DNA from: an uncultured Clostridia bacterium
GTDB taxonomy: Bacteria > Bacillota > Clostridia > TANB77 > CAG-508
NCBI GenBank assembly: GCA_934167965.1
Contig: CAKPMJ010000002.1
Location: forward strand, 90,907-154,906
Direction of reading: 5' to 3'
Length of the DNA stretch: 64,000 bases
Below the pieces are notes generated by a model. That model worked only from the letters and a program-made list of their open reading frames with translations. It was not told the DNA's origin and did not search any database. Made by a program: the position numbers and the translations under genes. The stretch's first letter is position 1. Every line of letters starts with the position of its first letter. This document shows, in pieces, positions 24,053 through 57,149 of this stretch.

Positions 24053-24265
24053 TTATGCAAGACCATATTTCTTTTTAAATTTATCAGCTCTACTTCCTGC
24101 TGTATCTTGTCTCATTAAGTTTCCTGTCCAGAATGGATGACATTTTGAACATATATCAACTTTTATATCTTTTTTTGTTGAACCAACTTTCATTACATTT
24201 CCACAAGCACATGTAATTGTTGTTTCTTCATATGCTGGATGTATTCCTTCTTTCATGTAATTCAC
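24053..24265 (-). CDS. rpmE: 50S ribosomal protein L31 (start most likely at MKEGIHP)
   Basis: GIHPAYEETTITCACGN...CSKCHPFWTG matches the L31 zinc-ribbon family. Confidence 0.9.
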   Translation of the reverse strand: MNYMKEGIHPAYEETTITCACGNVMKVGSTKKDIKVDICSKCHPFWTGNLMRQDTAGSRADKFKKKYGLA

Positions 24266-24334
24266 CTCTTTCTACCTACTGTTTTTTAGACTGTTATTTT
24301 CTATGTTACCATATTTTATGAATTTTTTCAAGTA

Positions 24335-24508
24335 TTATTTTATTACGTTTTCTTCTTTTTCATACTTGTATTCTTCATACATGTATTGAGCAGAAGATCT
24401 TAGTTCTTTATTAAGAGACACTTTATTAACAAGTTTAATACATACATTGAATAAACATGCTAATATTAATATTACTAAACATACTTTTTTCCATATTTTA
24501 GCTAACAT
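24335..24508 (-). CDS. Small membrane protein (57 aa), not in the ORF track
   Basis: RBS AAGGAG 9 nt upstream; MLAKIWKKVCLVILILACLFNVCIKLV... has one TM plus an acidic/Tyr-rich tail. Confidence 0.35.
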   Translation of the reverse strand: MLAKIWKKVCLVILILACLFNVCIKLVNKVSLNKELRSSAQYMYEEYKYEKEENVIK

Positions 24509-24734
24509 ATAACTTCTCCTTTTTTTTACTACATATTACATTATACTATTTTTTTCAAATTTGTCAAGTGTTTAGCAAGTTTTGATAGCATAAATTTTCA
24601 GTAGGATTTCTCTTTTATAAAATTGTGAAACTATTTCTGCTGTTGAAATTCGAATTTCTAATTTAATTTTATATTTTTATCTTAATTTTTCTGTATTTTT
24701 AGAGTTCACTTAATAAACCTTTTTTAGACTATTT

Positions 24735-25601
24735 TCAAAATATCATATTTCCCTTATCTCTTATCTTCATTCTGTATTCATTTATTTTATATCCACAAAA
24801 ATTTACTCCTTGTTTTCCTTTAAATATTTGTGTTTTTTTATTTAATTCTAACTGTAATTTTTCTTTTAAAAATTTTGTTATTTGCTCTAGTGCATTTTTT
24901 GCCTCCTGTTTTGTTTCTACAATTAATACACTGTCATCTAAATACCTCGCATAATATTTTATATGTAATTTATGTTTTACAAATTGGTCTATTTCATTTA
25001 AATAAATATTTCCAAACATTTGAGATGTATAATTTCCTATTTCTAATCCTTTTTTTCTGGACTGTGAATATAATATTTCTTTTATAAGCCATATTATTTT
25101 TTTGTCTTTTATTTTTCTTTCTATTATTTCTAATAATATTTTTTTATTTATATTATCGAAATATTTGGCTACATCCATTTTTAATATATAATAATTTTTC
25201 CATTTATTTTTTGCTTTTTTCATACATGATTGTACATACAATGCTGCTCTATGCATTCCCCTTCCTTTTAAACAAGCATAAGAATTACTTATAAACGTTG
25301 GTACAAATGCTGGTTCTAAAAAGTTATCTACTAACCATCTATGTACTATTCTGTCTATATACCTAGATTTTTCTATTTTTCTTATTTTAGGTTCTGTTAC
25401 ATAAAATACTGTATATCCTCCATGTTTATATGTCATATCTTTTAATTTTTTATATAAATACATTATATATTCTTCTTGTTTTAAATAAAAATTTATATTT
25501 TCTATTCTATATCCTTTTCCCTTTTTAGATTTTATGTGTGCATCCATTAATTTTTCATAACTTAATTTTTTGTCATATTCATTTCTTATTGTCTTTGGCA
25601 T
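24735..25601 (-). CDS. Diversity-generating retroelement (DGR) reverse transcriptase
   Basis: RVT_1 domain with YARYLDD (YxDD) and the DGR-specific motif-4 variant LEIGNYTSQMFGNIYLNEID (IGxxxSQ instead of QGxxxSP). No maturase or endonuclease domain; N-terminus ...EPKIRKI...DRIVHRWL is typical of bRT-like RTs. Confidence 0.8.
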   Translation of the reverse strand: MPKTIRNEYDKKLSYEKLMDAHIKSKKGKGYRIENINFYLKQEEYIMYLYKKLKDMTYKHGGYTVFYVTEPKIRKIEKSRYIDRIVHRWLVDNFLEPAFVPTFISNSYACLKGRGMHRAALYVQSCMKKAKNKWKNYYILKMDVAKYFDNINKKILLEIIERKIKDKKIIWLIKEILYSQSRKKGLEIGNYTSQMFGNIYLNEIDQFVKHKLHIKYYARYLDDSVLIVETKQEAKNALEQITKFLKEKLQLELNKKTQIFKGKQGVNFCGYKINEYRMKIRDKGNMIF

Positions 25602-25962
25602 AATATTTTAATAATCCCCCTATTATTTTTCCTATTTCATATATCTGTTCTATTGCAATATTAAATTTTTTATTATCTATCCATCTGTTTTTATACATTA
25701 TTCTTAAAAATATTCGTTGAGTATTAAGCTCTGCATCTATTGCATTTATTATATTTAGACAATCTTTTGTTTCTTGTATTTTGCTTATATATAATACATC
25801 TTTTATCATTTTGTACATACTTGTTTTATATTCTGTCCCTATACTGAACTTTTCTATTCTTGGTATTTTTATTATTAAATTAATCATATATTCTACGTAT
25901 TTTTCTGTTTTAGGTATTAATATTAATTTATTTTCTTTTTCCTTATTCAATCTATTCACCAA
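25579..25962 (-). CDS. Avd-like accessory variability determinant (four-helix-bundle protein, PF05635-like)
   Basis: 127-aa basic helical protein overlapping the RT start by 23 nt. It resembles the four-helix-bundle/23S-IVS protein family (…AELNTQ…EIGKIIGGLLKYY). Confidence 0.65.
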   Translation of the reverse strand: MVNRLNKEKENKLILIPKTEKYVEYMINLIIKIPRIEKFSIGTEYKTSMYKMIKDVLYISKIQETKDCLNIINAIDAELNTQRIFLRIMYKNRWIDNKKFNIAIEQIYEIGKIIGGLLKYYAKDNKK

Positions 25963-26161
25963 CTTCTATCTCTAAATATCTTTCTAATGCAATTTCATAA
26001 TTCGTTTTTTCTTTGTGAATATTTTTAAGACATTCACTACATTTTTTATTTAATAATACCGCATCTTCTCCTATTGCAATATAAAATGCACCACATGATA
26101 CTAATATTATTTCATTTATATATATTTCTTTTAGTTTTAATATCATTTCATAAAAATTCAT
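25952..26161 (-). CDS. Small hypothetical ORF (69 aa) between the DGR target and avd
   Basis: ORF only; overlaps the avd start; function unknown. Confidence 0.3.
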   Translation of the reverse strand: MNFYEMILKLKEIYINEIILVSCGAFYIAIGEDAVLLNKKCSECLKNIHKEKTNYEIALERYLEIEVGE

Positions 26162-26288
26162 CTTTTATCATTCCTTTCTTTCTAAAAAAGGTGATATGCT
26201 ATTTTTTTGAACAAAAAAATAGCACACCACGCTAGTGGTGCACCACGCTAATTGCATTCGCTAATTATTATTAGCTTCTAATTTCCTA

Positions 26289-26373
26289 TATTTTCATAGC
26301 AATAGCCTTTTCTAGGTTATCGCTTTTAGAGTTCAGACCTACTTTATATAAAGTGTGAGGCGAGTAGAATAGT
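26289..26373 (-). repeat. Conserved post-VR element (IMH-like GC-rich block CTCGCCTCACAC, stop codon, 3' UTR), copy 1. The other copy, with one mismatch, is at 55861..55945.
   Basis: Direct comparison of the two loci. Confidence 0.7.
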
Positions 26374-27589
26374 TGGTGCTAGTATAGAGTGGACCGTCGT
26401 CGCTGCGAAGGCTAGGTGAATTGCTAATGCCGTGAAAACCACCACTGTAAGTACGACTGTAAGTGCTGTACGCCTCTAATGTCCACTCTAAACTATTTCC
26501 CAATAAATCATATATATTATTTAACTTATCTGTTGATACTGTTCCTGTTTTTCGCGTTGTATTTCTACTTGTTTTTACTCCTTCTAAATTTTTTGGAGTA
26601 GTTGATGTTACATCTATTCCATTTCCTTGCATCCACATCATCATTTGATCATATTGACTTCCCCATATCATACTACTTCCTACTACATTTGTTAATTTAT
26701 TTTTTCCACTATATTCTTTATCTTTTTGATATAATCCATACCATGTATTTGCACTACTAGTTTGCGCTGTTGCTGAAGTTGCTCCTGATACTGATTGGGC
26801 ATTTTTGGATGTTTCATTTAAACTAGTTTCATATCTTCCTACATAAAATCCTTTATTTTTTCCTACATATTTTATCATCTCATCAAATTCATTTTGTAAT
26901 TGTGTTTTCCACTTAGTTAGTATTTCTTCATCTGTTCCATTTAATCCTACTATATTTTTTAATAATCCAATTCCTTTTGTATCATCTCCTGTTACAGCAT
27001 CTCCAATTGTTGGATTTGATAAATAATCTGGTTCTCTCCTTCCTGTCACACTTGTCAATGCCATTATTCCTGATGTTTCTGTCCAGTTTAATGCTGTATA
27101 TCCACCTGAAGTAAAATCATAAAGTTTTCCTAGTTTCTTTCCTTCTGCATTTGTACCATACATTTTACTTACATCTTTTACTGGTACCCATACAAATTCA
27201 CTATTATCTGGGGCTACTACTACTATTCCTTTTTTTACTTCTGTTGGTGAATCTTCTTTTATTTTAAATCCTACTGGCACTACTATAGTTTCTCCATTAT
27301 CATCTTGTAATTTTGCTTTTCTTCCTTCTATAATTTTATTTTTATTGTCTTTTACCTTTCCTAAATTTCCTGTACTTTCCTCCATTAAGATTTCTAGATC
27401 TGTTAAGTCTTCTGTTTCATTTGCTTGTGCTTGCTCTGTTTTTGTTTTAGCCTCTGCTGCCTTTTTTAATATTCCATTCTCTCCTGATAGCATTGCTATT
27501 GCTACTCCTGCTAATATCAATAACACTATTATTGTTATTACTAGTGCTATTAATGTTATACCTTTGCTGGTATTTAATCTTTTTGTCAT
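26339..27589 (-). CDS. DGR target protein 1: pilin-like N-terminal signal/anchor plus C-terminal FGE-sulfatase/CLec-fold domain carrying a variable region
   Basis: N-terminus KGITLIALVITIIVLLILAGVAIAMLSGENGIL (type IV pilin/pseudopilin-like class III signal). C-terminus FYVGRYETS...NTWYGLYQ...SSMIWGSQYDQMMMW...NIYDLLGNSLEWTLE...RGG (FGE-sulfatase/CLec motifs). Its 3' end is a VR relative to the paralog at 55911..57149. Confidence 0.8.
   Translation of the reverse strand: MTKRLNTSKGITLIALVITIIVLLILAGVAIAMLSGENGILKKAAEAKTKTEQAQANETEDLTDLEILMEESTGNLGKVKDNKNKIIEGRKAKLQDDNGETIVVPVGFKIKEDSPTEVKKGIVVVAPDNSEFVWVPVKDVSKMYGTNAEGKKLGKLYDFTSGGYTALNWTETSGIMALTSVTGRREPDYLSNPTIGDAVTGDDTKGIGLLKNIVGLNGTDEEILTKWKTQLQNEFDEMIKYVGKNKGFYVGRYETSLNETSKNAQSVSGATSATAQTSSANTWYGLYQKDKEYSGKNKLTNVVGSSMIWGSQYDQMMMWMQGNGIDVTSTTPKNLEGVKTSRNTTRKTGTVSTDKLNNIYDLLGNSLEWTLEAYSTYSRTYSGGFHGISNSPSLRSDDGPLYTSTNYSTRLTLYIK
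26374..26510 (-). other. DGR variable region VR1 at the 3' end of target 1
   Basis: Locally GC-richer segment. It aligns gap-free with 55946..56080 and differs at 32 of 98 core positions, while both flanks are identical. Confidence 0.75.
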
Positions 27590-28111
27590 ATCGTTAATCT
27601 CCTTTCATTTTTTTCTAAAGTTTTGTAATTTTTTTAATTTTATTTTTATGTTTTTATTTTATTTAATAATAAAATTTTGTATTTTTTTATTCAAAATAAA
27701 TAATAGTTTATTGAACTATTCAGCAAAGATATTTAATTTTCAATGTGCTATTATTCATTTTTTCCTAAAAATTTACACGTTTATTATAGCATAGGGATTT
27801 TTATTTTTCAACCATTTTTAACAATTTATTTTTGCCTTACAAACTACATTTTACTTTTACTATTTACCAAATTTATTTTTATTTGCCATCTTTTTATTTT
27901 CTGATTTTACTCTCCGTACATATCTTTTCCACTCACATTATAATTGGTCATTTCTGTCGCTAAATTTTTTTCTGCTATTGTTAATGTTGGTAAAAAATCT
28001 GCAAGTGATCTATTTTCTTTTATTCCATATCTTGTCATCAACATATAAGTCTTCGATTTCTCTTTTGGCTCCCTTAGCTAAATTTATCTTTTATATCCAA
28101 GTTGCTCTTGA

Positions 28112-29860
28112 TCATTTCTTTGCTAATATTTTTTCAAATTCTTTAAATCTTTTTACTTTTTGAGTAGTAGTCTTTTCAAGTGGCTCAGTTGTTATTATTA
28201 ATTCTTTTATTCTCTTAAATACTGGTAAGCTCTTATTTATTTCTTTTATATCTTCCCATACCAAGTTTTTATATTCTTTTTCTGTTTTATCGCCGAATTT
28301 TTCTTTTATAATTTCTGGATCATATACTAATTTTATTCCTAGACTAATTTCTCCTTTTGTATTTTCTCTTGGATATAATATACTTTCTGTAACATAAGGT
28401 AATTTATTTACTAAGAATTCAATGTCACTTGGAAATACATTTTCACCATTTTTTAATACTATCACATCTTTCTTTCTTCCAGATATAAATAAATATCCAT
28501 CTTTATTATAGTATCCTAAGTCTCCTGTATGGAACCATCCATCTTTCATAACACTTTCTGTTGCTTCTGGGTTCTCATAATATCCAAGCATAACATTAGG
28601 TCCTTTTACAACTATTTCTCCAACACCATTTTCATCAACATCTTCTAATTTTAATTCAACATTATATGGTGCCATTCCTACACTTCCTGGGCATTTTTGT
28701 TTATCTGTTTCAGCTGCAACTAATGGTGATGTTTCTGTTAAACCATATCCTTGAACTGTTTCTATACCAAAACTGTTGTATCCATCTATTACTTTTTTAT
28801 CCATTGCTGCTGCTCCAAAATATGCTATTCTTAAATTCCCTCCAAGTTGATCTAACACACTTTTAAATAATTTTCTTCTTACATCTATATGTAGTTTTAA
28901 TAATCCATTGGCTAATCCACTCATTGTATCAACTAGTTTTGCTTTTCCTTGATCTTCTATAGATTTTCTTATCTTTTTATATATTGTTTCTAATACTAAT
29001 GGTACAGCAACAAATACACTTACTTTATATTCTACTAAGTTCTTAGCAATATATTTTAATCCATCACAAAATGCTACTGTAACTCCACTATAAAATCCAT
29101 ATAAAAATGTTATTGTGCATTCAAATGTATGATGTAATGGTAAAAATGATAATAAGACATCATTATCATACATTTTAGACATCTTAGCCATAGCAATTAT
29201 ATTAGATGTAATATTTTTTTGTGATAACATTACACCTTTTGCCATGCTTGTTGTTCCTGATGTAAATATTAATATACTCATTTTATTGTTATCAATTTTC
29301 ACATCTGCATATCTATGGTCACCATCTTCTATTTTCTTCATTCCTTGTTCAACTAATTCTTTAAATGATAATATACCATTTTCCTCTTTTTTCAAGTCCA
29401 TATTTATATAGTATTTTATTGTTTCGTTTTCTTCTCTTATACTATTGAAAACTTCGTTATATTTATTTTCATATATAACAGCATCAACTTTACTTCTTTC
29501 AATTAGATTTTTTATTTCTTGTTCTGGTAATGCTTTATCTAATGGCACTACTACCATATTAGATGTTGTTATTGCAAAATAACTTTCACACCATTCATAT
29601 CTATTATTTCCTATTAATGCAATTTTTTTATTTTCCAATCCTAATTCAAGTAACATTGTTCCCAATGCTTCTACTTCTTTTTTTACCTCTGAATAAGTTT
29701 TTTCTATTACTTTTTGATTCTTCTTCCCTAAGTTTTCTTTAAACTTGTATGCTACATTATTTGGGTATGTTTCACAACTATGGTTTATTAACTCCCTAAA
29801 ATTATTAATTTCATAAACTTCATAAAGATTACTATTTAATTTTTTCATTTTTCCCTCCAT
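28112..29860 (-). CDS. AMP-dependent synthetase/ligase (long-chain acyl-CoA synthetase, FAA1-type)
   Basis: AMP-binding motifs (IFTSGTTSMAKGV; GYGLTETSP; TGDLGYYNKDGYLFISGRKKD; VKRFKEFEK). Confidence 0.85.
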   Translation of the reverse strand: MEGKMKKLNSNLYEVYEINNFRELINHSCETYPNNVAYKFKENLGKKNQKVIEKTYSEVKKEVEALGTMLLELGLENKKIALIGNNRYEWCESYFAITTSNMVVVPLDKALPEQEIKNLIERSKVDAVIYENKYNEVFNSIREENETIKYYINMDLKKEENGILSFKELVEQGMKKIEDGDHRYADVKIDNNKMSILIFTSGTTSMAKGVMLSQKNITSNIIAMAKMSKMYDNDVLLSFLPLHHTFECTITFLYGFYSGVTVAFCDGLKYIAKNLVEYKVSVFVAVPLVLETIYKKIRKSIEDQGKAKLVDTMSGLANGLLKLHIDVRRKLFKSVLDQLGGNLRIAYFGAAAMDKKVIDGYNSFGIETVQGYGLTETSPLVAAETDKQKCPGSVGMAPYNVELKLEDVDENGVGEIVVKGPNVMLGYYENPEATESVMKDGWFHTGDLGYYNKDGYLFISGRKKDVIVLKNGENVFPSDIEFLVNKLPYVTESILYPRENTKGEISLGIKLVYDPEIIKEKFGDKTEKEYKNLVWEDIKEINKSLPVFKRIKELIITTEPLEKTTTQKVKRFKEFEKILAKK

Positions 29861-39420: not shown

Positions 39421-40110
39421 TTAATTATTTTCTTGTATTTTATATTGGCTAATATCAGGCTCTACAAATATACTATCATCTACATTGTCAAATTCATAAT
39501 AATATTCTGCAACTATTGCTTCTTCTGTTCCATCTTCTTTTACCGAGTATCCATTATTTGCTTTTAATGTAAGACCTGTTTGCTTTTGTATATATGCATT
39601 ATCTGCTATTAATGATTGAACAAAGTAACACTCTTTTCCTTCATATTTTACAGTTTTTATTTTACTCATAGCAGCTAATTTAAATAAACTCCATAAATTA
39701 TTCTCATAATCAAATCCCATAATCATAATTTGAGATTGTACTTCATCCTTATTAGCACCTAGCATCGCTATTTTAGAATCTTCAACATCTATATAAGTAT
39801 TTACTGTGTCTCCTTTGGTATATTGCATTAACTTTCTATTTTTACCTGTGTCTTTTTCTTTTAAAGTATATATCATCAAAGCATTCTCATCTTTTAAATA
39901 AAACTCTGTCATACCTCCAGAATTATTTACAATTTTTTCATAATGATTATTACTATTTATGTACTTTGAAACTTTATTGTTTAAATCTCTAATTATAATC
40001 ATCTTCCTAATTGTTATTGCTAAAAAAATAATTATCGCAATTAATATAAATAATAAAATAATTTTCAATACTTTCTTTTTATTCATATAAATTCCTCCTT
40101 TTCTAAGCAA
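39421..40110 (-). CDS. Hypothetical membrane-anchored protein
   Basis: N-terminal TM; no recognisable domain. Confidence 0.5.
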   Translation of the reverse strand: MLRKGGIYMNKKKVLKIILLFILIAIIIFLAITIRKMIIIRDLNNKVSKYINSNNHYEKIVNNSGGMTEFYLKDENALMIYTLKEKDTGKNRKLMQYTKGDTVNTYIDVEDSKIAMLGANKDEVQSQIMIMGFDYENNLWSLFKLAAMSKIKTVKYEGKECYFVQSLIADNAYIQKQTGLTLKANNGYSVKEDGTEEAIVAEYYYEFDNVDDSIFVEPDISQYKIQENN

Positions 40111-40298
40111 CCTTGCAATTCTGAGCTATTATATAATCTTTAGACCATTGGCTTTTCGTCATAAACTTTCATTTACTTTGCTTTTTAACCTATTTCTATT
40201 ATACCATATTTTAGCTTTTTTTTGCAAATGAGAACTTTTCTATAATAAAAAAAGTGAATTTCTGTTAATACAGTTTTTCACTTTTTTCTTAATTTACT

Positions 40299-47895: not shown

Positions 47896-49617
47896 ATGAC
47901 TTTTTGTGAACAATTAAACAAATATATAGAACAAATCAACTGCTCTTCTCAAGAGCTAGTAACAGCTTCAGAACTTTCATCTACCGTTATTAGCCGTTAT
48001 CGTAAAGGTGATAGAACACCAAATATAAAAAGTAAACAATTAAAACAATTAGCAGATGGATTATACAAACTTAGCAATGAAAAAAATATCAATTTATCTA
48101 AAGATGAAATATATAATTCTTTAGCTAATACTTTAAATGATATTACTATTGATTTTGAGCAACTAAGCCAAAACTTTAATGAAATTATTTCAACACTAAA
48201 TATTAGCATTGCCGACTTGTCTCGTTTTATGGGATATGACTCTTCTTTTATTTCTAAAATTCGTACTGGAAGTAGAAATCCCTCAAAACCTCAAGACTTT
48301 ATAACATCAGTTTGCAATTTTATTGTAACAAAATATAACTCTGAAAGTGATAAAAAGACAATCTCTCTTCTTATTGGCTGTAAATTAGAAGACCTAAAAA
48401 ATGACTCAGCTTATCTTGAAAAACTAACTAATTGGTTTTCTACTAATTCGTCATTATCTAAAGTTGGTAATTTTTTAAATAACTTGAATGATTTTGATCT
48501 AAATGAATATATAAAAGCAATTCACTTTGATGAAATGAAAGTTCCTTTTGTTCCATTTTATAAATCTGGAACAAAAAATTATTATGGAATTGAGGAAATG
48601 AAAAAAGGTGAAATAGACTTTTTCAAAGCTACTGTCCTTTCTAAATCAAATGAACCTATTTTTATGTGTAGTGATATGCCAATGGAAGATATGGCTAAAG
48701 ATGTTGATTTTGGCAAAAAGTGGATGTTTGCCATTGCAATGACTTTAAAGAAAGGACTGCACTTAAATATAATTCATAACCTTGACCGACCATTTAATGA
48801 AATGATGCTTGGTCTAGAAAGTTGGATTCCTATTTATATGACAGGACAAGTTTCTCCTTATTACCTAAAAGGTATACAAAATTCAGTTTATTGTCACTTA
48901 AATTACGTGTCAGGTGTTGCTGCACTTACTGGAGAATGTATAAGTGGTTATCATAATAGTGGAAAATACTTTTTAACAAGCAATAAAGCAGATGTCTCAT
49001 ACTATCAAACTAAATCTAAAAATTTACTTAATATTGCTAAACCTCTTATGGAAATCTACAGATCAGAATCAAAAAATGCTTTTATAGCATTTATGTCTGC
49101 AAATGCTAAACTTAATGGAACACGTAGAAGAATCTTATCTTCTTTGCCAATTCAAACCATTTCAGATGAATTACTATTAAAAATTTTAAAACGAAATAAC
49201 GTAAATGATAATGATATAAAAAATATAATGGATTCTATAAAAGAACAAAAACAAATCATTCAAACAATACTAAAAAATAATACAATTGAAGATGAAATAT
49301 CAGAAATTTCTAAGGAAGATTTTGATAATTGTACTCCTACTCTTTCTCTTTCAAATTGTTTTTATGAAAATAAAGTTTATTATAATTATGAAGAATATTT
49401 AGAACATTTAAATTTAACTAAAGATTTTGAAAAAAGTAATAAAAATTATAAATTATCTACCAATTATAAACATACTTTTAGGAACATACAAATTCACATA
49501 TCTGAAAATAATTGGGTTATGATTTCTAAAGACAATTGCCCTTCTATACATTTTGTAATACAACATCCTAAACTTAGAGATGCAATTGAAAACTTTATTC
49601 CACCTGTAGTTGAATAA
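47896..49617 (+). CDS. Large transcriptional regulator with two N-terminal XRE-type HTH domains. Probable true start is ATG 47896; the ORF track starts it at 47854.
   Basis: RBS GGAGG at 47886-47890. Two HTH-like segments (QELVTASELSSTVISRYRKGDRTP and IADLSRFMGYDSSFISKIRTGSRNP) followed by ~450 aa of unknown domain. Confidence 0.6.
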   Translation: MTFCEQLNKYIEQINCSSQELVTASELSSTVISRYRKGDRTPNIKSKQLKQLADGLYKLSNEKNINLSKDEIYNSLANTLNDITIDFEQLSQNFNEIISTLNISIADLSRFMGYDSSFISKIRTGSRNPSKPQDFITSVCNFIVTKYNSESDKKTISLLIGCKLEDLKNDSAYLEKLTNWFSTNSSLSKVGNFLNNLNDFDLNEYIKAIHFDEMKVPFVPFYKSGTKNYYGIEEMKKGEIDFFKATVLSKSNEPIFMCSDMPMEDMAKDVDFGKKWMFAIAMTLKKGLHLNIIHNLDRPFNEMMLGLESWIPIYMTGQVSPYYLKGIQNSVYCHLNYVSGVAALTGECISGYHNSGKYFLTSNKADVSYYQTKSKNLLNIAKPLMEIYRSESKNAFIAFMSANAKLNGTRRRILSSLPIQTISDELLLKILKRNNVNDNDIKNIMDSIKEQKQIIQTILKNNTIEDEISEISKEDFDNCTPTLSLSNCFYENKVYYNYEEYLEHLNLTKDFEKSNKNYKLSTNYKHTFRNIQIHISENNWVMISKDNCPSIHFVIQHPKLRDAIENFIPPVVE

Positions 49618-49682
49618 GAGTGTCAAATGGGACGTTCCTTAATGACAATATATTGTCATTAAGGAACGTCCCATTTGACACT
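49616..49682. repeat. Perfect 67-nt palindrome made of two inverted copies of the 29-nt motif (GAGTGTCAAATGGGACGTTCCTTAATGACAATAT|ATATTGTCATTAAGGAACGTCCCATTTGACACTC)
   Basis: Read directly from the sequence; lies between convergent genes and may also act as a bidirectional terminator. Confidence 0.8.
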
Positions 49683-49690
49683 CTCTAACA

Positions 49691-50898: not shown

Positions 50899-50975
50899 TG
50901 GTGCTCCCTCAAGGATTCGAACCTTGGACCCACCGGTTATGAGCCGGTTGCTCTGACCAACTGAGCTAAGGGAGC
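50899..50975 (-). tRNA. tRNA with anticodon CAT (Met; could be tRNA-Ile2 after lysidine modification)
   Basis: Minus-strand cloverleaf GCTCCCT/TAGCTCAGTTGGTCAGAGC/AACCGGCTCATAACCGG/TGGGTC/CAAGGTTCGAATCCTTG/AGGGAGC-A-CCA, with encoded CCA. A terminator hairpin follows at 50865-50892. Confidence 0.85.
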
Positions 50976-52210: not shown

Positions 52211-53917
52211 TTATCCTTGTAATATTTTTTCCATCTCAACTTTTCTTTTTATTTTATGAGTTGTAGTCTTTTCAAACTCTTCATCTGTTATTAATAGATT
52301 TTTTATCCATTTATATTTTGGCATTGTTCTATTAACTACTTTTACTTCTTTCCATATAAGCTCTTTAATCTCATCTTCCGTAAGGTTTCCATATTTTTCT
52401 TGTATGTAATTTTTATCATATACAACCTTTACACTTACAGTTATGTCTTTATCCTTAAAATCTTCAGCACCATAAACCATTGATTCATCAACTAATGGAG
52501 AATTATTTAACAAAGTTTCTAGCTCTTCTGGATATACATTTTTTCCATTTGATAAAACAATAACAAATTTCTTTCTTCCTGAAATAAATATGTATCCATC
52601 TTTATCAATTTTTGCATAATCTCCTGTATGAAGCCATCCATCTTCTGTAAAAGCCTCTTTATTCGCTTCATCATCTCCAAAGTAACCTAGCATTACGCTA
52701 TCACCTTTTACAAGTAATTCGCCTACTCCTGTTTTTTCATCAACTTCATCTAATTTAACTTCTACACTTGGTAGTTTCTTTCCGATAGAGCCTATTCTTC
52801 TTTGATTTGTAAGCTCTGCTGCAATTACTGGTGATGTCTCTGTCAAACCATATCCTTGTAATAAATTAAATCCTAAGTCAAAAAATCCTTTTTCTACTTC
52901 TGGGCTTAAAGCTGCTCCTCCAGCAACCATAACCTTAATCTTTCCACCTAAGTTTTGATGAATATCTTTAAATAATCTTTTACGTACATCTATACCTACT
53001 TTAGATAAAATGTTGCTCATTTTTACTGCTGTTTTTACTGTTCCATCTTTACCTTTATCTTTTATTCCTTTTAGTAACTTTCCATACATTTTTTCATATA
53101 CAACTGGTACACAAATCATTGCAGTTATTCCAAATGTTTTCAATTCATCTGCAATATGTCTTACACCTTTAGAAAATACAATACTTGCTCCAATTGATAT
53201 TGGATATAAAAATCCTACTGTACATTCAAATGTATGATGTAATGGTAAAAATGATAATAATATATCTTCATCAGTAAGTTCAAAGGATTCTTGGATATCC
53301 ATAATATTAGTACATATATTTTTATGAGATAGCATTACTGCTTTTGATTTATTTGTTGTTCCTGATGTAAATAACATTATTCCCATTTCTTCGTTATTGA
53401 TTTCTGCATCTATAAATTCCTTATTTCCGCTATCTACTAATTCTTTTCCTTTTTCTAATATCTCTTTTAGAGAATATTTATCAAATACATGTTTTTCTAA
53501 ATCCATAGAAATAAAATATTTTAATTTTGAATCTCCCTTTTTTTGGATGTTTGCCATTGCCTCATCATATTTATTTGAATAGACTATAGCTTCAACTTCT
53601 GAACGCAAAATTAAACTTTCTATTTCATTTTCTGGTAATGCCTTATCTAAAGGTACAACTACACCAACTCCTGTAGCAATAGCAAGATATGCTAATTCCC
53701 ATTCATATCTGTTTTCACCTATTACAGCTATTCTTTTACCTTTTAAGCCCATTTCTATCATTGCAGTACCTAAATAATTTATTTCTTCTCTGAATTGTTT
53801 ATGTGTAATTTCTCTTACTCCAGATTTTTCTTGTAATAAATATGCTTTTTTGTCTCCATATTTTTCACCTGTCTGTTTTAACATATCTTTTAAATCTTTA
53901 AATTCCATAGTTCTCAT
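52211..53917 (-). CDS. AMP-dependent synthetase/ligase (long-chain acyl-CoA synthetase), paralog of 28112..29860
   Basis: LFTSGTTNKSKAV; GYGLTETSP; TGDYAKIDKDGYIFISGRKKF; C-terminal KIKRKVEMEK. Confidence 0.85.
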   Translation of the reverse strand: MRTMEFKDLKDMLKQTGEKYGDKKAYLLQEKSGVREITHKQFREEINYLGTAMIEMGLKGKRIAVIGENRYEWELAYLAIATGVGVVVPLDKALPENEIESLILRSEVEAIVYSNKYDEAMANIQKKGDSKLKYFISMDLEKHVFDKYSLKEILEKGKELVDSGNKEFIDAEINNEEMGIMLFTSGTTNKSKAVMLSHKNICTNIMDIQESFELTDEDILLSFLPLHHTFECTVGFLYPISIGASIVFSKGVRHIADELKTFGITAMICVPVVYEKMYGKLLKGIKDKGKDGTVKTAVKMSNILSKVGIDVRKRLFKDIHQNLGGKIKVMVAGGAALSPEVEKGFFDLGFNLLQGYGLTETSPVIAAELTNQRRIGSIGKKLPSVEVKLDEVDEKTGVGELLVKGDSVMLGYFGDDEANKEAFTEDGWLHTGDYAKIDKDGYIFISGRKKFVIVLSNGKNVYPEELETLLNNSPLVDESMVYGAEDFKDKDITVSVKVVYDKNYIQEKYGNLTEDEIKELIWKEVKVVNRTMPKYKWIKNLLITDEEFEKTTTHKIKRKVEMEKILQG

Positions 53918-55657
53918 TTATTCTGTTCCTTTCTCATTTTCCTGTTTTAATTTTAAATATCCCAATTCATTCCAACTATTATATGCTAAGTTCAATCTAA
54001 ATACAACTTTAGGTTTAGCTCCTGCTCTATTTTTATCAACAACACATGCATAATATCTAACATCAGGGTCATCAAATTTTTCTAAGTCATAAAATTTTGT
54101 ATCTACTTCTTTTAATGAATATTCATATTGGTCTAATGTGCTTCTTGGTATTTGTTTTATTAAACATAATGTATCTAATACCTCTTTTACTGTTCTACTA
54201 GCAGATAAATCATTTACATCTAAGTTTATAGGCAATGTTGCACTTTCTGTTAATTGAAGTGTTGACCCTATAAATATATTAAAGTCTTGCGCTAAATTTG
54301 ACAATATTGTTGCTGTTTTCTTTACCTCTTCTCCATTTCCAATATGTGCAGTATCTGTTTTTAATGTATCATAAAACATATATTGTATTTGTTCTTTATA
54401 ATAATAATTTTTTATTACTTTGCTTAATTCATCATTTGTATGATCTGTAATGTTTATAAAATATATTGCATTGTTTACTTGAGTATTTAACCAATCTGTA
54501 GCTTTCAATGTTTTATTAAAGTCTGATGAATATTTTTTTAATTTTTCTATAAACTCTGTTTGTGTTTCTTTTTTATTTCTTGCTATATAACCATTTTCGT
54601 CTATTTCTACATCATCTTTATTATCTGGTCTAAATTTTAATTCTAGTAATTCACCTTCGCTAATCTTTATTTTTTGTCCATGTATTTTTTGAATCTCTGG
54701 ATTATTTATAATTGTTGTAATCAAACATAGCTTCATTTTTTCTTCTGACATTTCATTTGAAATTACTAACACTTTCTTTTTATGTACAAAAGCAAGATAT
54801 GCGGCTAAATTTATTGTAAATCTACTTTTACCAGAGTTTGATGGCATTGCAAAAGCTGTTGTTTCTCCTCTTCTTATACCTTTAAACACACTTGATAATA
54901 TATTAAATGGTAAATTAAGACCTTTGGCTAAGTTATTTTCTCCTGCTGTCAAAAATTCTGTTATTCCTTCATTTAATACAGCTTGTTTAAATTTAGCTGT
55001 TACCTGTGCCTGATTCACTGCGCTTTCAACTTCCTCAATTGACATTTGGTCATATAATTCATAATTTACTATATCTACAATTTTATTTTGAATTGATTTT
55101 ATTGGTATTTCTAAATAACTTTTTCTTAATATAAATAATTTCTTTAGTTCAACATAAACTTTTTCAAAATCTATTCTTTCATTTTCGACTTTGTTTTTTA
55201 AATCTAATTTTAGTTGATATGACTCTTTTGTATCTTTTGCAAAATTATAATTTCTTTTTGCTTTTTCAGAGGCGTATTTATCACCTTCTGTAAATAAAAC
55301 ACTTTTATATAAATTTAATATCTCTTGATTTGCAAAATAATTTTCTTCAAATACAAAATAGTACATACTTATAGATTTAGGGTCATTCAACAAAAGTCCC
55401 ATATATTGCTCTTCAAGTTCTTCATTCATCAACGCATTTGGGTATATTTGCCCTTCTTCTGTTAAATAATCATCTTCTATTTTTTCCTCTTCTTCATCTG
55501 TTTTGTTTTCTTGTAATTTTTTTAATTCATATACTGCTTGCTCAACTTCATCGTTGTCTAACATTTCTTTTATCTCTTCTAATTTTTCTCTATTTCCCTT
55601 TGTTACAGGAATTGCTTTTAATAATTGATACATTTTTTCTTTTATTTCAGGATTCAT
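53918..55657 (-). CDS. Divergent DnaB-family helicase-like protein (N-terminal DnaB_N-like plus RecA-like C-terminal domain)
   Basis: YMGLLLNDPKSISMYYFVFEENYFAN (DnaB N-terminal pattern). Walker A-like GETTAFAMPSNSGKSRFTINLAAYLA. C-terminal VVDKNRAGAKPKVVFRL (DnaB KqRnGptG-like). Stop TAA abuts the ATG of the downstream ligase gene. Confidence 0.55.
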   Translation of the reverse strand: MNPEIKEKMYQLLKAIPVTKGNREKLEEIKEMLDNDEVEQAVYELKKLQENKTDEEEEKIEDDYLTEEGQIYPNALMNEELEEQYMGLLLNDPKSISMYYFVFEENYFANQEILNLYKSVLFTEGDKYASEKAKRNYNFAKDTKESYQLKLDLKNKVENERIDFEKVYVELKKLFILRKSYLEIPIKSIQNKIVDIVNYELYDQMSIEEVESAVNQAQVTAKFKQAVLNEGITEFLTAGENNLAKGLNLPFNILSSVFKGIRRGETTAFAMPSNSGKSRFTINLAAYLAFVHKKKVLVISNEMSEEKMKLCLITTIINNPEIQKIHGQKIKISEGELLELKFRPDNKDDVEIDENGYIARNKKETQTEFIEKLKKYSSDFNKTLKATDWLNTQVNNAIYFINITDHTNDELSKVIKNYYYKEQIQYMFYDTLKTDTAHIGNGEEVKKTATILSNLAQDFNIFIGSTLQLTESATLPINLDVNDLSASRTVKEVLDTLCLIKQIPRSTLDQYEYSLKEVDTKFYDLEKFDDPDVRYYACVVDKNRAGAKPKVVFRLNLAYNSWNELGYLKLKQENEKGTE

Positions 55658-55910
55658 ATTTTTTTTCCTCCTAGTATTTGTTCTTGCTTATTATATCATT
55701 TAGTTTTTTGTATTTCAAGTATTTTGTTAATAAATACTCCTGTATATATTTTTTTCATACTAATCTTGGTAAGCCTTTATTAACAAAAAAATTAGCCAAA
55801 ATCCTTAAATTTACTTTAAGAATTATTTGACTAATTTTTCCTTCTTTTATTAATTTTCTATATTTTCATAACAATAGCCTTTTCTAGGTTATCGCTTTTA
55901 GAGTTCAGAC

Positions 55911-57149
55911 CTACTTTATATAAAGTGTGAGGCGAGTAGAATAGTCGCTGCTAGTAAGGTACGGATGGTTGTTGGGGCGATTGCTAGGTGAAAAGCTAAG
56001 GCTGAAATAACCACCTCTGAGAGCACGACGGCTAGTGTAGTTCGCCTCTAATGTCCATTCATAACTATTTCCTAGTAAATCATATATATTGTTTAATTTA
56101 TCTGTTGAGACTGTTCCTGTTTTTCGTGTTGTATTTCTACTTGTTGTTACTCCTTCTAAATTTGTTGGAGTTTTTGATGTTACGTCTATTCCATTTTCTT
56201 GCATCCATATCATCATTTGATCATATTGACTTCCCCATATCATACTACTTCCTACTACATTTTTTATTTTATCTTGCCCACTATATTCTTTATCTTTTTG
56301 ATATAATCCATACCATGTATTTGCACTACTTGTTTCTGCTGTTGCCGATGCTACGCCAGATATTGATTGAGCATTTTTTGTTTCTGTGTTTAAACTTGTT
56401 TCATATCTTCCTACATAGAATCCTTTATTTTTTTCTACATATTTTATCATTTCATCAAATTCGTTTTGTAATTGTGTTTTCCATTTCGTTAGTATCTCTT
56501 CATCTGTTCCATTTAAACCTACTATACTTTTCAATAAAGCTATTCCTTTTGCATCATCCCCTGTTATTGCATCTCCATATGCTGTACTTGATAAATAGTC
56601 TGGCTCTCTGTAGTCTGTTGCACCTGTCCATTTCATAACTCCTGATGTCTCTGTCCAACTATTCGCTCTATATCCACTTGAAGTAAAGTTATAAAGTTTT
56701 CCTAGTTTCTTTTCTTCTGCATTTGTTCCATACATTTTACTTACATCTTTTACTGGCACCCATACAAATTCACTATTATCTGGTGCTACTACTACTATTC
56801 CTTTTTTTACTTCTGTCGGTGAATCTTCTTTTATTTTAAATCCTACTGGCACTACTATAGTTTCTCCATTGTCATCTTGTAATTTTACTTTTCTTCCTTC
56901 TATAACTTTATTTTTATTGTCTTTTACCTTTCCTAAGTTTCCTGTACTTTCTTCCATTAAAATTTCTAAATCTGTTAAGTCTTCTGTTTCATTTGTTTGT
57001 GCTTCTTCTGTTTTCATTTTAGCATCTGCAGCCTTCTTTAATATTCCATTTTCTCCTGATAGCATTGCTATTGCGACTCCTGCTAATATCAATAACACTA
57101 TTATTGTTATTACTAGTGCTATTAATGTTATTCCATTGTTTTTCTTCAT
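55911..57149 (-). CDS. DGR target protein 2 (paralog of 26339..27589) with a distinct C-terminal variable region
   Basis: Same pilin-like N-terminus (NGITLIALVITIIVLLILAGVAIAMLSGENGIL) and FGE/CLec domain. The C-terminal ~45 aa differ (…EANYTSRRALRGGYFSLSFSPSNRPNNHPYLTSSDYSTRLTLYIK). Confidence 0.8.
   Translation of the reverse strand: MKKNNGITLIALVITIIVLLILAGVAIAMLSGENGILKKAADAKMKTEEAQTNETEDLTDLEILMEESTGNLGKVKDNKNKVIEGRKVKLQDDNGETIVVPVGFKIKEDSPTEVKKGIVVVAPDNSEFVWVPVKDVSKMYGTNAEEKKLGKLYNFTSSGYRANSWTETSGVMKWTGATDYREPDYLSSTAYGDAITGDDAKGIALLKSIVGLNGTDEEILTKWKTQLQNEFDEMIKYVEKNKGFYVGRYETSLNTETKNAQSISGVASATAETSSANTWYGLYQKDKEYSGQDKIKNVVGSSMIWGSQYDQMMIWMQENGIDVTSKTPTNLEGVTTSRNTTRKTGTVSTDKLNNIYDLLGNSYEWTLEANYTSRRALRGGYFSLSFSPSNRPNNHPYLTSSDYSTRLTLYIK
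55946..56080 (-). other. DGR variable region VR2
   Basis: See VR1; mismatches are confined to this block. Confidence 0.75.

What the first reader, a model, noticed from the sequence alone, without database searches (positions are those of the whole stretch)
24520..26340. No template repeat (TR) detectable next to the RT or anywhere in the window
DGRs need a ~100-150-bp TR, normally between avd and RT or just beyond the RT. Here avd and RT overlap by 23 nt. I scanned the avd-target spacer (25962-26339), the region downstream of the RT (24265-24735), the AT-rich 27590-28110 spacer and the surroundings of target 2. None holds a VR-like A-rich copy. Either the TR lies outside this 64-kb window, the cassette is a TR-less remnant, or the TR has diverged beyond recognition.
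Basis: inference. Interest (0 to 1): 0.6.

Follow-up and report, generated by a model that had tools for sequence, protein, structure and literature searches.

The report
Decayed DGR that lost its template
The mutagenesis cassette (DGR) here really has no template repeat, because a deletion or rearrangement cut off the end of its reverse transcriptase gene together with the adjacent template and its helper RNA, leaving a dead remnant and two 'frozen' variable genes; this is an ordinary case of gene-cassette decay.

Summary
The window holds two VR-bearing target genes and a MSL-Avd-RT cassette but no TR. A masked scan that scores a true TR 88/97 gives at best 47/97 elsewhere in the window. RT homologs are 336-339 aa; this one is 288 aa. 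In six relatives the TR lies about 21 nt after the RT stop, directly followed by the Rfam RT-14 RNA and a small SSB-like ORF. A sibling cassette (L015/L016/L018) is 98% identical in DNA up to window position 24748, RT codon ~285, where homology stops. The RT C-terminus, TR, RT-14 RNA and SSB-like ORF are absent from the window. The sibling's TR explains the window's VRs: 23/23 (VR2) and 22/25 (VR1) mismatches fall on TR adenines. The MSL gene also has an in-frame 67-aa deletion. The same junction and identical VRs recur in independent metagenome assemblies, so it is not an assembly artefact and diversification has stopped. Other strains carry different deletions of the same cassette. A second intact DGR elsewhere in the genome cannot be formally excluded. 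Interest is low: a known kind of decay, as with the Treponema denticola DGR remnants.

The parts
26339..27589 (-). Target gene 1 (416 aa). It has a prepilin-like hydrophobic N-terminus and a C-terminal variable region.
   Evidence: ORF. It is 84% identical to target 2. The exact protein occurs on 4 contigs and is the only member of its 90% cluster.
26352..26474 (-). VR1 (123 nt).
   Evidence: Against the sibling TR (L018:3234-3356) there are 25 mismatches, 22 of them at TR adenines. VR1 is identical in L001, L003 and L004.
26212..26250 (-). Hairpin plus T-run after target 1 (GTGGTG/CACCAC repeats). It is terminator-like and conserved in relatives.
   Evidence: Read from the sequence (the same motif occurs in L012, L011 and L010). 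Function is inferred.
25952..26161 (-). MSL (MutS-domain-I-like) accessory gene remnant of 69 aa. It carries an in-frame 67-aa (201-nt) internal deletion between two AAATAAAAAAT direct repeats; the junction is at about 26041-26056.
   Evidence: Pfam MutS_I E=8.7e-5. The full-length 136-aa versions in L015 and L019 are identical on both sides of the gap.
25579..25962 (-). Avd accessory gene, intact (126-127 aa).
   Evidence: Pfam bAvd E=8e-17. NCBIfam DivGenRetAVD E=9e-19. 96% aa identity to L016 Avd.
24735..25601 (-). 3'-truncated DGR reverse transcriptase (288 aa). Residues 1-284 are homologous to relatives. The last 4 codons (NMIF) and the stop come from unrelated sequence.
   Evidence: Pfam RVT_1. 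Homologs are 336-339 aa. tblastn of the sibling RT covers only residues 1-284.
24745..24748 (-). Breakpoint. Homology to all relatives ends here (RT codon ~285), inside an A-rich tract.
24509..24744 (-). Sequence joined to the broken RT. It is unrelated to any relative's post-RT region and carries a promoter-like TTGACA-17-TATAAT ahead of a 57-aa ORF and rpmE (L31).
   Evidence: Local alignments to five relatives' post-RT regions score within the shuffled null. Sequence read.
55911..57149 (-). Target gene 2 (412 aa), a remote target with no cassette beside it.
   Evidence: The exact protein occurs on 8 contigs from at least 6 samples and is the only member of its 90% cluster.
55924..56046 (-). 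VR2 (123 nt).
   Evidence: Against the sibling TR there are 23 mismatches, all 23 at TR adenines.

Best explanation
This is a decayed diversity-generating retroelement of the MSL-Avd-RT-TR type. The ancestral cassette read: target(VR) - MSL - Avd - RT - TR - RT-14 RNA - small SSB-like ORF. It diversified both target genes by adenine-specific mutagenic retrohoming.

In this lineage a deletion or rearrangement occurred with its left breakpoint in an A-rich tract at RT codon ~285. It removed the last ~50 residues of the RT (the part aligning to the C-terminal ~50 residues of Bordetella bRT). It also removed the TR, the structured RNA that abuts it, and the SSB-like ORF. The RT stub was joined to unrelated chromosomal DNA upstream of a 57-aa ORF and rpmE. 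A second, repeat-mediated in-frame deletion removed half of MSL.

Without template RNA and with a truncated RT the cassette cannot make cDNA, so VR1 and VR2 are frozen at their last state.

Shown: the absence of the TR, RT-14 and RT C-terminus; the breakpoint; the A-specific VR pattern relative to the sibling TR; and VR invariance across samples. Inferred: the order of events, whether the right-hand side was lost by simple deletion or by translocation, and the loss of activity.
For: 1. RT length: 288 aa here against 336-339 aa in more than 100 homologs. The alignment shows loss after ...IRDKG.

2. Position of the TR in relatives. In L007, L010, L011, L012, L016 and L018 the TR starts about 21 nt after the RT stop. 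Avd and RT overlap by 23 nt just as here. Their own TR/VR pairs differ only or almost only at adenines: 23/23, 20/20 and 22/24.

3. Breakpoint. The sibling cassette L015/L016/L018/L019 is 98% identical in DNA to window 26056-24748, and homology then stops.

4. The sibling TR explains the window's VRs. VR2 has 23/23 and VR1 22/25 mismatches at TR adenines, while A makes up 51 of 123 TR positions.

5. RT-14 RNA. Rfam RT-14 (108-124 bits) abuts the TR in all seven relatives that keep that region. It is absent from the window, even at E<=10, and from its twin L001.

6. No RT C-terminus, SSB-like ORF or second RT anywhere in the window.

7. MSL has a 67-aa in-frame deletion.

8. The truncated RT occurs on 11-13 contigs from independent assemblies (SPAdes, MEGAHIT, Logan; Hadza and other cohorts) with the same junction.

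9. VR1 is identical in 4 contigs. The exact target-2 protein is on 8 contigs from at least 6 samples. Neither target has any variant in its 90% cluster.

10. Sister lesions show that this cassette decays readily. L019 has RT codon ~286 fused into the SSB-like ORF via an AAAGGAAAAA repeat, with TR and RT-14 lost. L013 has Avd codon ~10 joined to RT codon ~286 via a 15-nt repeat, with most of the TR deleted. L010 has MSL fused to RT residue ~33.
Against: The sequence to the right of the breakpoint matches nothing in the relatives. A simple internal deletion therefore cannot be demonstrated, and the cassette sits in different genomic contexts in different genomes.

The strains carrying it are nearly clonal: 0-1 mismatch in 11-20 kb. 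VR invariance therefore covers a short evolutionary time.

dN/dS of the remaining RT against its siblings (0.07-0.37 from 12-19 substitutions) shows no clear relaxation, though power is minimal.

The rest of the genome could not be searched. The window's genome is not among the GTDB representatives scanned.
Confidence: 0.85

Rival explanations
1. The TR, probably with a second intact RT cassette, lies elsewhere in the same genome outside the 64-kb window. It still diversifies VR1 and VR2 in trans, and the truncated cassette is a dead paralogue.
For: DGRs commonly act on remote targets, and target 2 here is itself remote. Three metagenomes (ERZ28573803, ERZ28573899, ERZ27233311) contain both the P0001-type and the P0124-type cassette, so two paralogous cassettes may coexist in related genomes. 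The genome outside the window could not be searched.
Against: VR1 and VR2 are identical in every sample that carries this strain, and no variants exist in their 90% clusters. VRs are assembled contiguously in a 371-kb scaffold.

None of the samples yielding the full-length or fusion members of the RT's 90% cluster (P0001, P0124, P0125, P0127, P0128) is a sample that carries the window strain.

In this family the TR is always fixed next to its RT. The GTDB and JGI scans for the TR/VR pattern found no cognate TR.
Confidence: 0.1
2. The TR is still in the window but has diverged beyond recognition.
For: None beyond the AT-rich intergenic stretches available at 24265-24735 and 27590-28110.
Against: Homology to a 98%-identical sibling stops abruptly at 24748 rather than fading. 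The flanking markers are all absent: the RT C-terminus, the RT-14 RNA (very well conserved at 108-124 bits across 75-98%-identical relatives) and the SSB-like ORF. The best masked-scan score is 47/97 against 88/97 for a real TR.
Confidence: 0.01
3. An assembly artefact, either collapse of the TR onto a VR or a chimeric join, hides an intact RT-TR.
For: TR and VR are about 80% identical repeats, which can confuse assemblers.
Against: The identical junction sequence occurs in at least 6 independent assemblies made with different assemblers and from different cohorts, at 100% identity across the junction. The RT C-terminus, which is not repeated, is missing too. Collapse of a 125-nt repeat would not remove about 750 nt of unique sequence.
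Confidence: 0.02

Closest known systems
MSL-containing DGRs ('architecture D', with avd-RT-TR core order B2) of Wu, Zimmerly et al. 2018 (PMC5758913)
   Same: The gene order is target-MSL-avd-RT-(TR), all on one strand. The RT belongs to the DGR clade and Avd is present. The intact siblings (L015/L016/L018) fit this architecture fully.
   Different: The TR is missing here, the RT lacks its last ~50 aa, and MSL is 69 aa against the described 112-283 aa. The family also carries an RT-14 RNA and an SSB-like ORF that are not part of the published description.
Bordetella phage BPP-1 DGR (bRT-Avd-TR-Sp RNA; PDB 8ub7 series)
   Same: The sibling RT aligns to bRT residues 3-316 at E=1.6e-35. Mutagenesis is adenine-specific, the VR is at the 3' end of the target gene, and a structured RNA lies next to the TR (RT-10 in BPP-1, per Weinberg 2017, PMC5737381; RT-14 here).
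   Different: The order is avd-TR-RT in BPP-1 and avd-RT-TR here. This element is chromosomal rather than phage-borne. The window copy ends at the equivalent of bRT residue ~275 and has no TR or spacer RNA.
[quoted passage not shown] 2016, PMC4891356)
   Same: Targets are retained whose VRs differ from a TR found only in other strains, mostly at adenine positions. These were interpreted as loss or partial loss of the DGR.
   Different: There both RT and TR are gone. Here most of the RT, Avd and part of MSL survive, so the breakpoint can be mapped to the nucleotide.

Membership tests
Diversity-generating retroelement (functional) | RT of the DGR clade with the (I/L)GxxxSQ motif and YxDD | tested here: met
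   IGNYTSQ and YLDD are present in the ORF. Pfam RVT_1 matches. The best solved homolog of the sibling RT is bRT 8ub7 at E=1.6e-35.
Diversity-generating retroelement (functional) | Full-length RT including the C-terminal region | tested here: not met
   288 aa against 336-339 aa. Residues after 284 are replaced by NMIF and a stop. The missing part aligns to bRT residues ~276-316.
Diversity-generating retroelement (functional) | Template repeat (TR) homologous to the VR | tested here: not met
   None in 64 kb. The rest of the genome is not testable with these tools.
Diversity-generating retroelement (functional) | VR/TR differences confined to TR adenines | tested here: met
   Tested against the sibling's TR, not a TR of this genome: VR2 23/23 and VR1 22/25.
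Diversity-generating retroelement (functional) | Accessory protein Avd | tested here: met
   Pfam bAvd E=8e-17 and NCBIfam DivGenRetAVD E=9e-19.
Diversity-generating retroelement (functional) | Structured RNA next to the TR (spacer/priming RNA; RT-14 in this family) | tested here: not met
   Rfam RT-14 is present in 7 relatives and absent from the window at E<=10.
Diversity-generating retroelement (functional) | Ongoing VR diversification between and within populations | tested here: not met
   VR1 is identical in 4 contigs. The target-2 protein is identical in 8 contigs from at least 6 samples. Both 90% clusters are singletons. Read-level heterogeneity is not testable here.
Diversity-generating retroelement (functional) | VR in a C-type-lectin/FGE-sulfatase-fold C-terminal domain of the target | tested here: inconclusive
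   No Pfam or NCBIfam hit for the window's targets. A related target in L011 has only a faint FGE-sulfatase hit. No structure was predicted.
MSL-type DGR (architecture D, Wu et al. 2018) | MSL accessory gene of 112-283 aa with MutS-domain-I similarity | tested here: not met
   MutS_I similarity is kept (E=8.7e-5), but the ORF is 69 aa after a 67-aa internal deletion. The siblings have 136 aa at E=3e-10.

The most novel reading that the evidence does not exclude
The remnant may be more than random junk. Three different rearrangements break within a few nucleotides of each other in the A-rich tract GATAAAGGAAAAAGAAAAT at RT codon ~285: the window, L019 and L013. In L019 and L013 the join runs through 10-15-nt direct repeats; the window's junction partner is unidentified. 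All three leave intact target genes. This tract could act as a recurrent, possibly selected, off-switch that freezes a useful VR variant in gut Clostridia. Alternatively, the retained Avd plus RT stub could still work with a template RNA supplied in trans.
Probability: 0.12. Interest if true: 0.45.

Novelty: new member of a known kind. Interest (0 to 1): 0.22.

Why it matters
It settles the flagged puzzle: the missing TR is real and has a mundane cause. For annotation, the two target genes should be treated as formerly diversified and now fixed, and the RT, Avd and MSL as pseudogene-like remnants.

The case is a cleanly mapped example of how DGRs die, by microhomology deletions in A-rich coding tracts. 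The comparative set also gives two small leads of wider use. The orphan Rfam motif RT-14 is the TR-adjacent RNA of an MSL-type DGR family. A conserved SSB-like ORF travels with it.

Tried and rejected
- **Finding the window's genome in GTDB.** I scanned the GTDB species representatives with a TR/VR pattern, using N at the variable sites. It returned only the TR of a different, also damaged, DGR (L010, UMGS1734). The window's own VRs were not found, so this genome is not in that collection.
- **JGI metagenome scan.** The same type of scan gave only L026 (the same contig as L010) and an orphan VR (L025). No cognate TR turned up.
- **Looking for the right-hand side of the deletion.** I aligned window 24509-24747 to the post-RT regions of five relatives. 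All scores fell within the shuffled null. Simple deletion and translocation therefore remain unresolved. A tempting alignment of the junction to the L019 RT::ORF80 fusion was judged not significant.
- **dN/dS of the surviving RT and Avd against siblings.** There are too few substitutions (12-19) to show relaxed selection.
- **Looking for an intact near-identical RT in the same samples as the window strain.** The five other long members of the 90% cluster come from other samples. This is only weak evidence.
- **Literature search for a general survey statement on TR-less DGR remnants.** It found only the Treponema case.
- **Loss of a long hairpin between VR and MSL.** L010-L012 have such a hairpin. 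I considered and dropped its absence as a further lesion, because the closest intact siblings (L015/L018) lack it too.

Full report
**1. What is at the coordinates**

The window is low-GC (about 27%) chromosomal DNA of a spore-forming Clostridia-type gut bacterium. Its neighbours include SipL, YunB, SpoIID and sigma-F operon genes. It is 100% identical to part of a 371-kb human-gut metagenome scaffold (L001).

The DGR parts lie on the minus strand:
- Target 1 at 26339-27589 (416 aa).
- A 69-aa ORF with MutS-domain-I similarity at 25952-26161.
- Avd at 25579-25962 (Pfam bAvd E=8e-17; NCBIfam DGR Avd E=9e-19).
- An RT at 24735-25601 (RVT_1, IGNYTSQ and YLDD motifs).

A second target, 84% identical, lies 30 kb away at 55911-57149. 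The two VRs (26352-26474 and 55924-56046) differ at 32 sites within 97 nt, while their flanks are identical.

**2. Is the TR really absent?**

Yes, on four independent tests:
- blastn with 7-nt words finds only the two VRs.
- An ungapped scan scoring only the 97 positions invariant between VR1 and VR2 gives 97/97 for the VRs. The best score elsewhere is 47/97 (background mean about 22-25 depending on strand, sd 4.4). A genuine cognate TR from a sibling cassette scores 88/97 in that same scan, so the test had power.
- The real TR plus downstream sequence of relatives hits only VR1 and VR2 in the window.
- There is no second RT, no RT C-terminus and no copy of the downstream small ORF in the window.

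**3. What the family normally looks like**

More than 100 close RT homologs are 336-339 aa; the window's RT is 288 aa and stops after ...IRDKG.

I fetched contigs of relatives at 75-98% identity: L007-L009, L010, L011, L012, L015-L018. All show one architecture: target(VR) - MSL (117-136 aa) - Avd - RT (avd and RT overlapping by 23 nt) - about 21 nt - TR (123-131 nt) - conserved RNA - small ORF of 80-95 aa.

Their own TR/VR pairs differ only or almost only at TR adenines: L018/L015 23/23, L011 20/20, L010 22/24. These are therefore bona fide DGRs.

The conserved RNA is Rfam RT-14 (RF02921). It gives full-length matches of 108-124 bits in seven relatives and abuts the TR's 3' end. RT-14 is one of the orphan 'RT motifs' of Weinberg et al. 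2017. Those authors showed that RT-10 is the TR-RT spacer of phage BPP-1 and guessed that other RT motifs serve other DGRs (PMC5737381).

The small ORF is SSB/OB-fold-like (Pfam SSB E=3.5e-5 for the L010 copy).

The architecture corresponds to the MSL-containing 'architecture D' with avd-RT-TR order of Wu et al. 2018 (PMC5758913).

**4. The lesion**

The sibling cassette L015/L016/L018/L019 is 98% identical in DNA to window 26056-24748. Homology then stops dead at 24748 (24745 for L019), which is RT codon ~285. The break lies inside the A-rich tract GATAAAGGAAAAAGAAAATTAAAG. The window reads GATAAGGGAAA|TATGATATTTTGA, so four foreign codons (NMIF) and a stop close the ORF.

Compared with L016, at least about 750 nt are missing: the RT C-terminal ~52 codons, the 21-nt linker, the TR, RT-14 and the SSB-like ORF. 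RT-14 is not found in the window even at E<=10.

The sibling RT aligns with Bordetella bRT (PDB 8ub7) over bRT residues 3-316. The window copy ends at the equivalent of bRT residue ~275, so it lacks the whole C-terminal region.

What follows the breakpoint (24744-24509) is a promoter-like element and a 57-aa ORF ahead of rpmE. It has no significant similarity to any relative's post-RT region. I therefore cannot say whether the loss was a larger in-situ deletion or a rearrangement that moved a partial cassette.

A second lesion affects MSL. The window's MSL is the 136-aa sibling protein minus 67 internal residues, deleted in frame between two AAATAAAAAAT repeats 201 nt apart.

**5. The VRs were made from the missing TR**

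Against the sibling TR (51 A in 123 nt), VR2 has 23 mismatches, all at adenines. VR1 has 25, of which 22 are at adenines. The chance of 23/23 is about 0.41^23, roughly 1e-9. The three non-A changes in VR1 are compatible with ordinary substitutions.

**6. Not an artefact, and no longer active**

The truncated RT with the same junction occurs on 11-13 contigs from SPAdes, MEGAHIT and Logan assemblies of several cohorts, including Hadza. These contigs are 100% identical across the junction.

VR1 is identical in all four contigs that include it. The exact target-2 protein is on 8 contigs from at least 6 samples. Neither target has any variant within its 90% cluster.

Active DGRs typically produce VR heterogeneity between and within samples; here there is none. 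One caveat is that the strains are almost clonal (0-1 mismatch in 11-20 kb). Read-level data were also not available.

**7. Decay is recurrent in this cassette**

Several relatives carry their own lesions:
- L019 fuses RT codon ~286 into the SSB-like ORF through an AAAGGAAAAA direct repeat, deleting the TR and RT-14. This gives the 356-aa 'RT' P0125.
- L013 sits in the genomic context of the window's target-2 locus. It joins Avd codon ~10 to RT codon ~286 through a 15-nt repeat (AAGGAAAAAGAAAAT). It also deletes all but the last 23 nt of the TR, yet keeps RT-14 and the small ORF.
- L010/L026 (UMGS1734) fuses MSL to RT residue ~33, losing Avd.
- L018 has stop codons in MSL and in the small ORF.

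These are documented.

Three breakpoints fall in the same A-rich RT tract. The window shares the MSL deletion with L013, but its RT is closest to that of L019, which has a full-length MSL. This mosaic pattern is unexplained; it could reflect recombination between cassettes or recurrent repeat-mediated deletion.

**8. Rivals**

- **A paralogous intact cassette elsewhere in the genome.** This cannot be excluded, because the genome is not in the scanned GTDB set and the JGI scan found nothing cognate. Related metagenomes do hold two cassette types together. Against it stand the frozen VRs and the lack of sample co-occurrence with intact close RTs. I give it about 0.1.
- **Divergence beyond recognition.** Rejected by the abrupt end of homology and the absence of all flanking markers.
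- **Assembly collapse.** Rejected by the independent assemblies and by the loss of unique sequence, which a repeat collapse would not remove.

**9. Comparison with what is known, and verdict**

Functionally and by descent this is a DGR of the MSL/avd-RT-TR type. It fails the defining tests for a working member: TR, full-length RT, TR-adjacent RNA, intact MSL and ongoing diversification. It is best filed as a DGR remnant.

Loss of the core DGR with retention of A-patterned VR targets has been described in Treponema denticola isolates (PMC4891356). The present case is a further instance, and here the breakpoint is mapped to the nucleotide.

Interest is low (0.22). The flagged anomaly is real but ordinary. 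The by-products are modest leads: RT-14 as the TR-adjacent RNA of this DGR family, a co-travelling SSB-like ORF, and a deletion hot spot in the RT.

Noticed in passing
L007:1274-1417, L010:702-845(-), L011:9166-9314, L012:3161-3304, L016:2095-2238, L018:3355-3498, L013:1541-1684: The orphan Rfam motif RT-14 (RF02921) abuts the 3' end of the TR in every relative that keeps that region. It is probably the spacer/priming RNA of this MSL-type DGR family. It is absent from the window.
   Followed up: partly
L007:1449-1697, L011:9372-9620, L012:3341-3628, L013:1716-1958, L010 (minus strand, about 420-680): A conserved 80-95-aa SSB/OB-fold-like ORF follows RT-14 in all relatives (Pfam SSB E=3.5e-5 for the L010 copy, just under the cut-off). 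It is a candidate additional DGR accessory gene, is not in the published accessory list I read, and is absent from the window.
   Followed up: partly
L013:1000-2100, compared with window 55737-55851: In a related strain the window's target-2 locus (upstream of the DnaB_C-like gene) carries a heavily deleted cassette: MSL-69, an Avd/RT stub, the last 23 nt of the TR, RT-14 and the SSB-like ORF. The window has only 114 nt of unique sequence there. The cassette therefore once sat at locus 2, or moved between loci.
   Followed up: partly
window 25952-26161 compared with L013 and L019: The window shares its 67-aa MSL deletion with L013, but its RT is most similar to that of L019 (12 substitutions), which has a full-length MSL. 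This mosaic history is unexplained; it could be recombination or a recurrent repeat-mediated deletion.
   Followed up: no
L010:1-3176 (UMGS1734, uncultured Clostridium) and L025: This is another damaged relative: the MSL ORF runs directly into RT residue ~33 and Avd is missing, although the TR, RT-14 and an A-patterned VR are present. L025 is an orphan VR-bearing target of the same type with no cassette beside it.
   Followed up: no
window 27480-27589 and 57050-57149 (N-termini of both targets): Both DGR targets start with a prepilin-like motif (KG|ITLIALVITIIVLLILAG; Pfam N_methyl E=0.07, sub-threshold, and lacking the usual Glu5). This suggests pilin- or pseudopilin-like surface display of the variable domain.
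   Followed up: partly
window 28112-29860 and 52211-53917: Two paralogous AMP-binding (acyl-CoA-ligase-like) genes, about 66% identical in DNA, lie next to the two target loci. A 579-aa DnaB_C-like gene (53918-55657) lies directly after target 2.
   Followed up: no
window 40103-40191 (-), 50902-50975 (-), 49590-49687 (-): A c-di-GMP-I riboswitch (45 bits), a tRNA, and a sub-threshold rli31-like match (41.5 bits against a gathering score of 80).
   Followed up: no
L007:5171-5740: A full-length OLE RNA (334 bits) lies in the relative's contig a few kb from its DGR.
   Followed up: no
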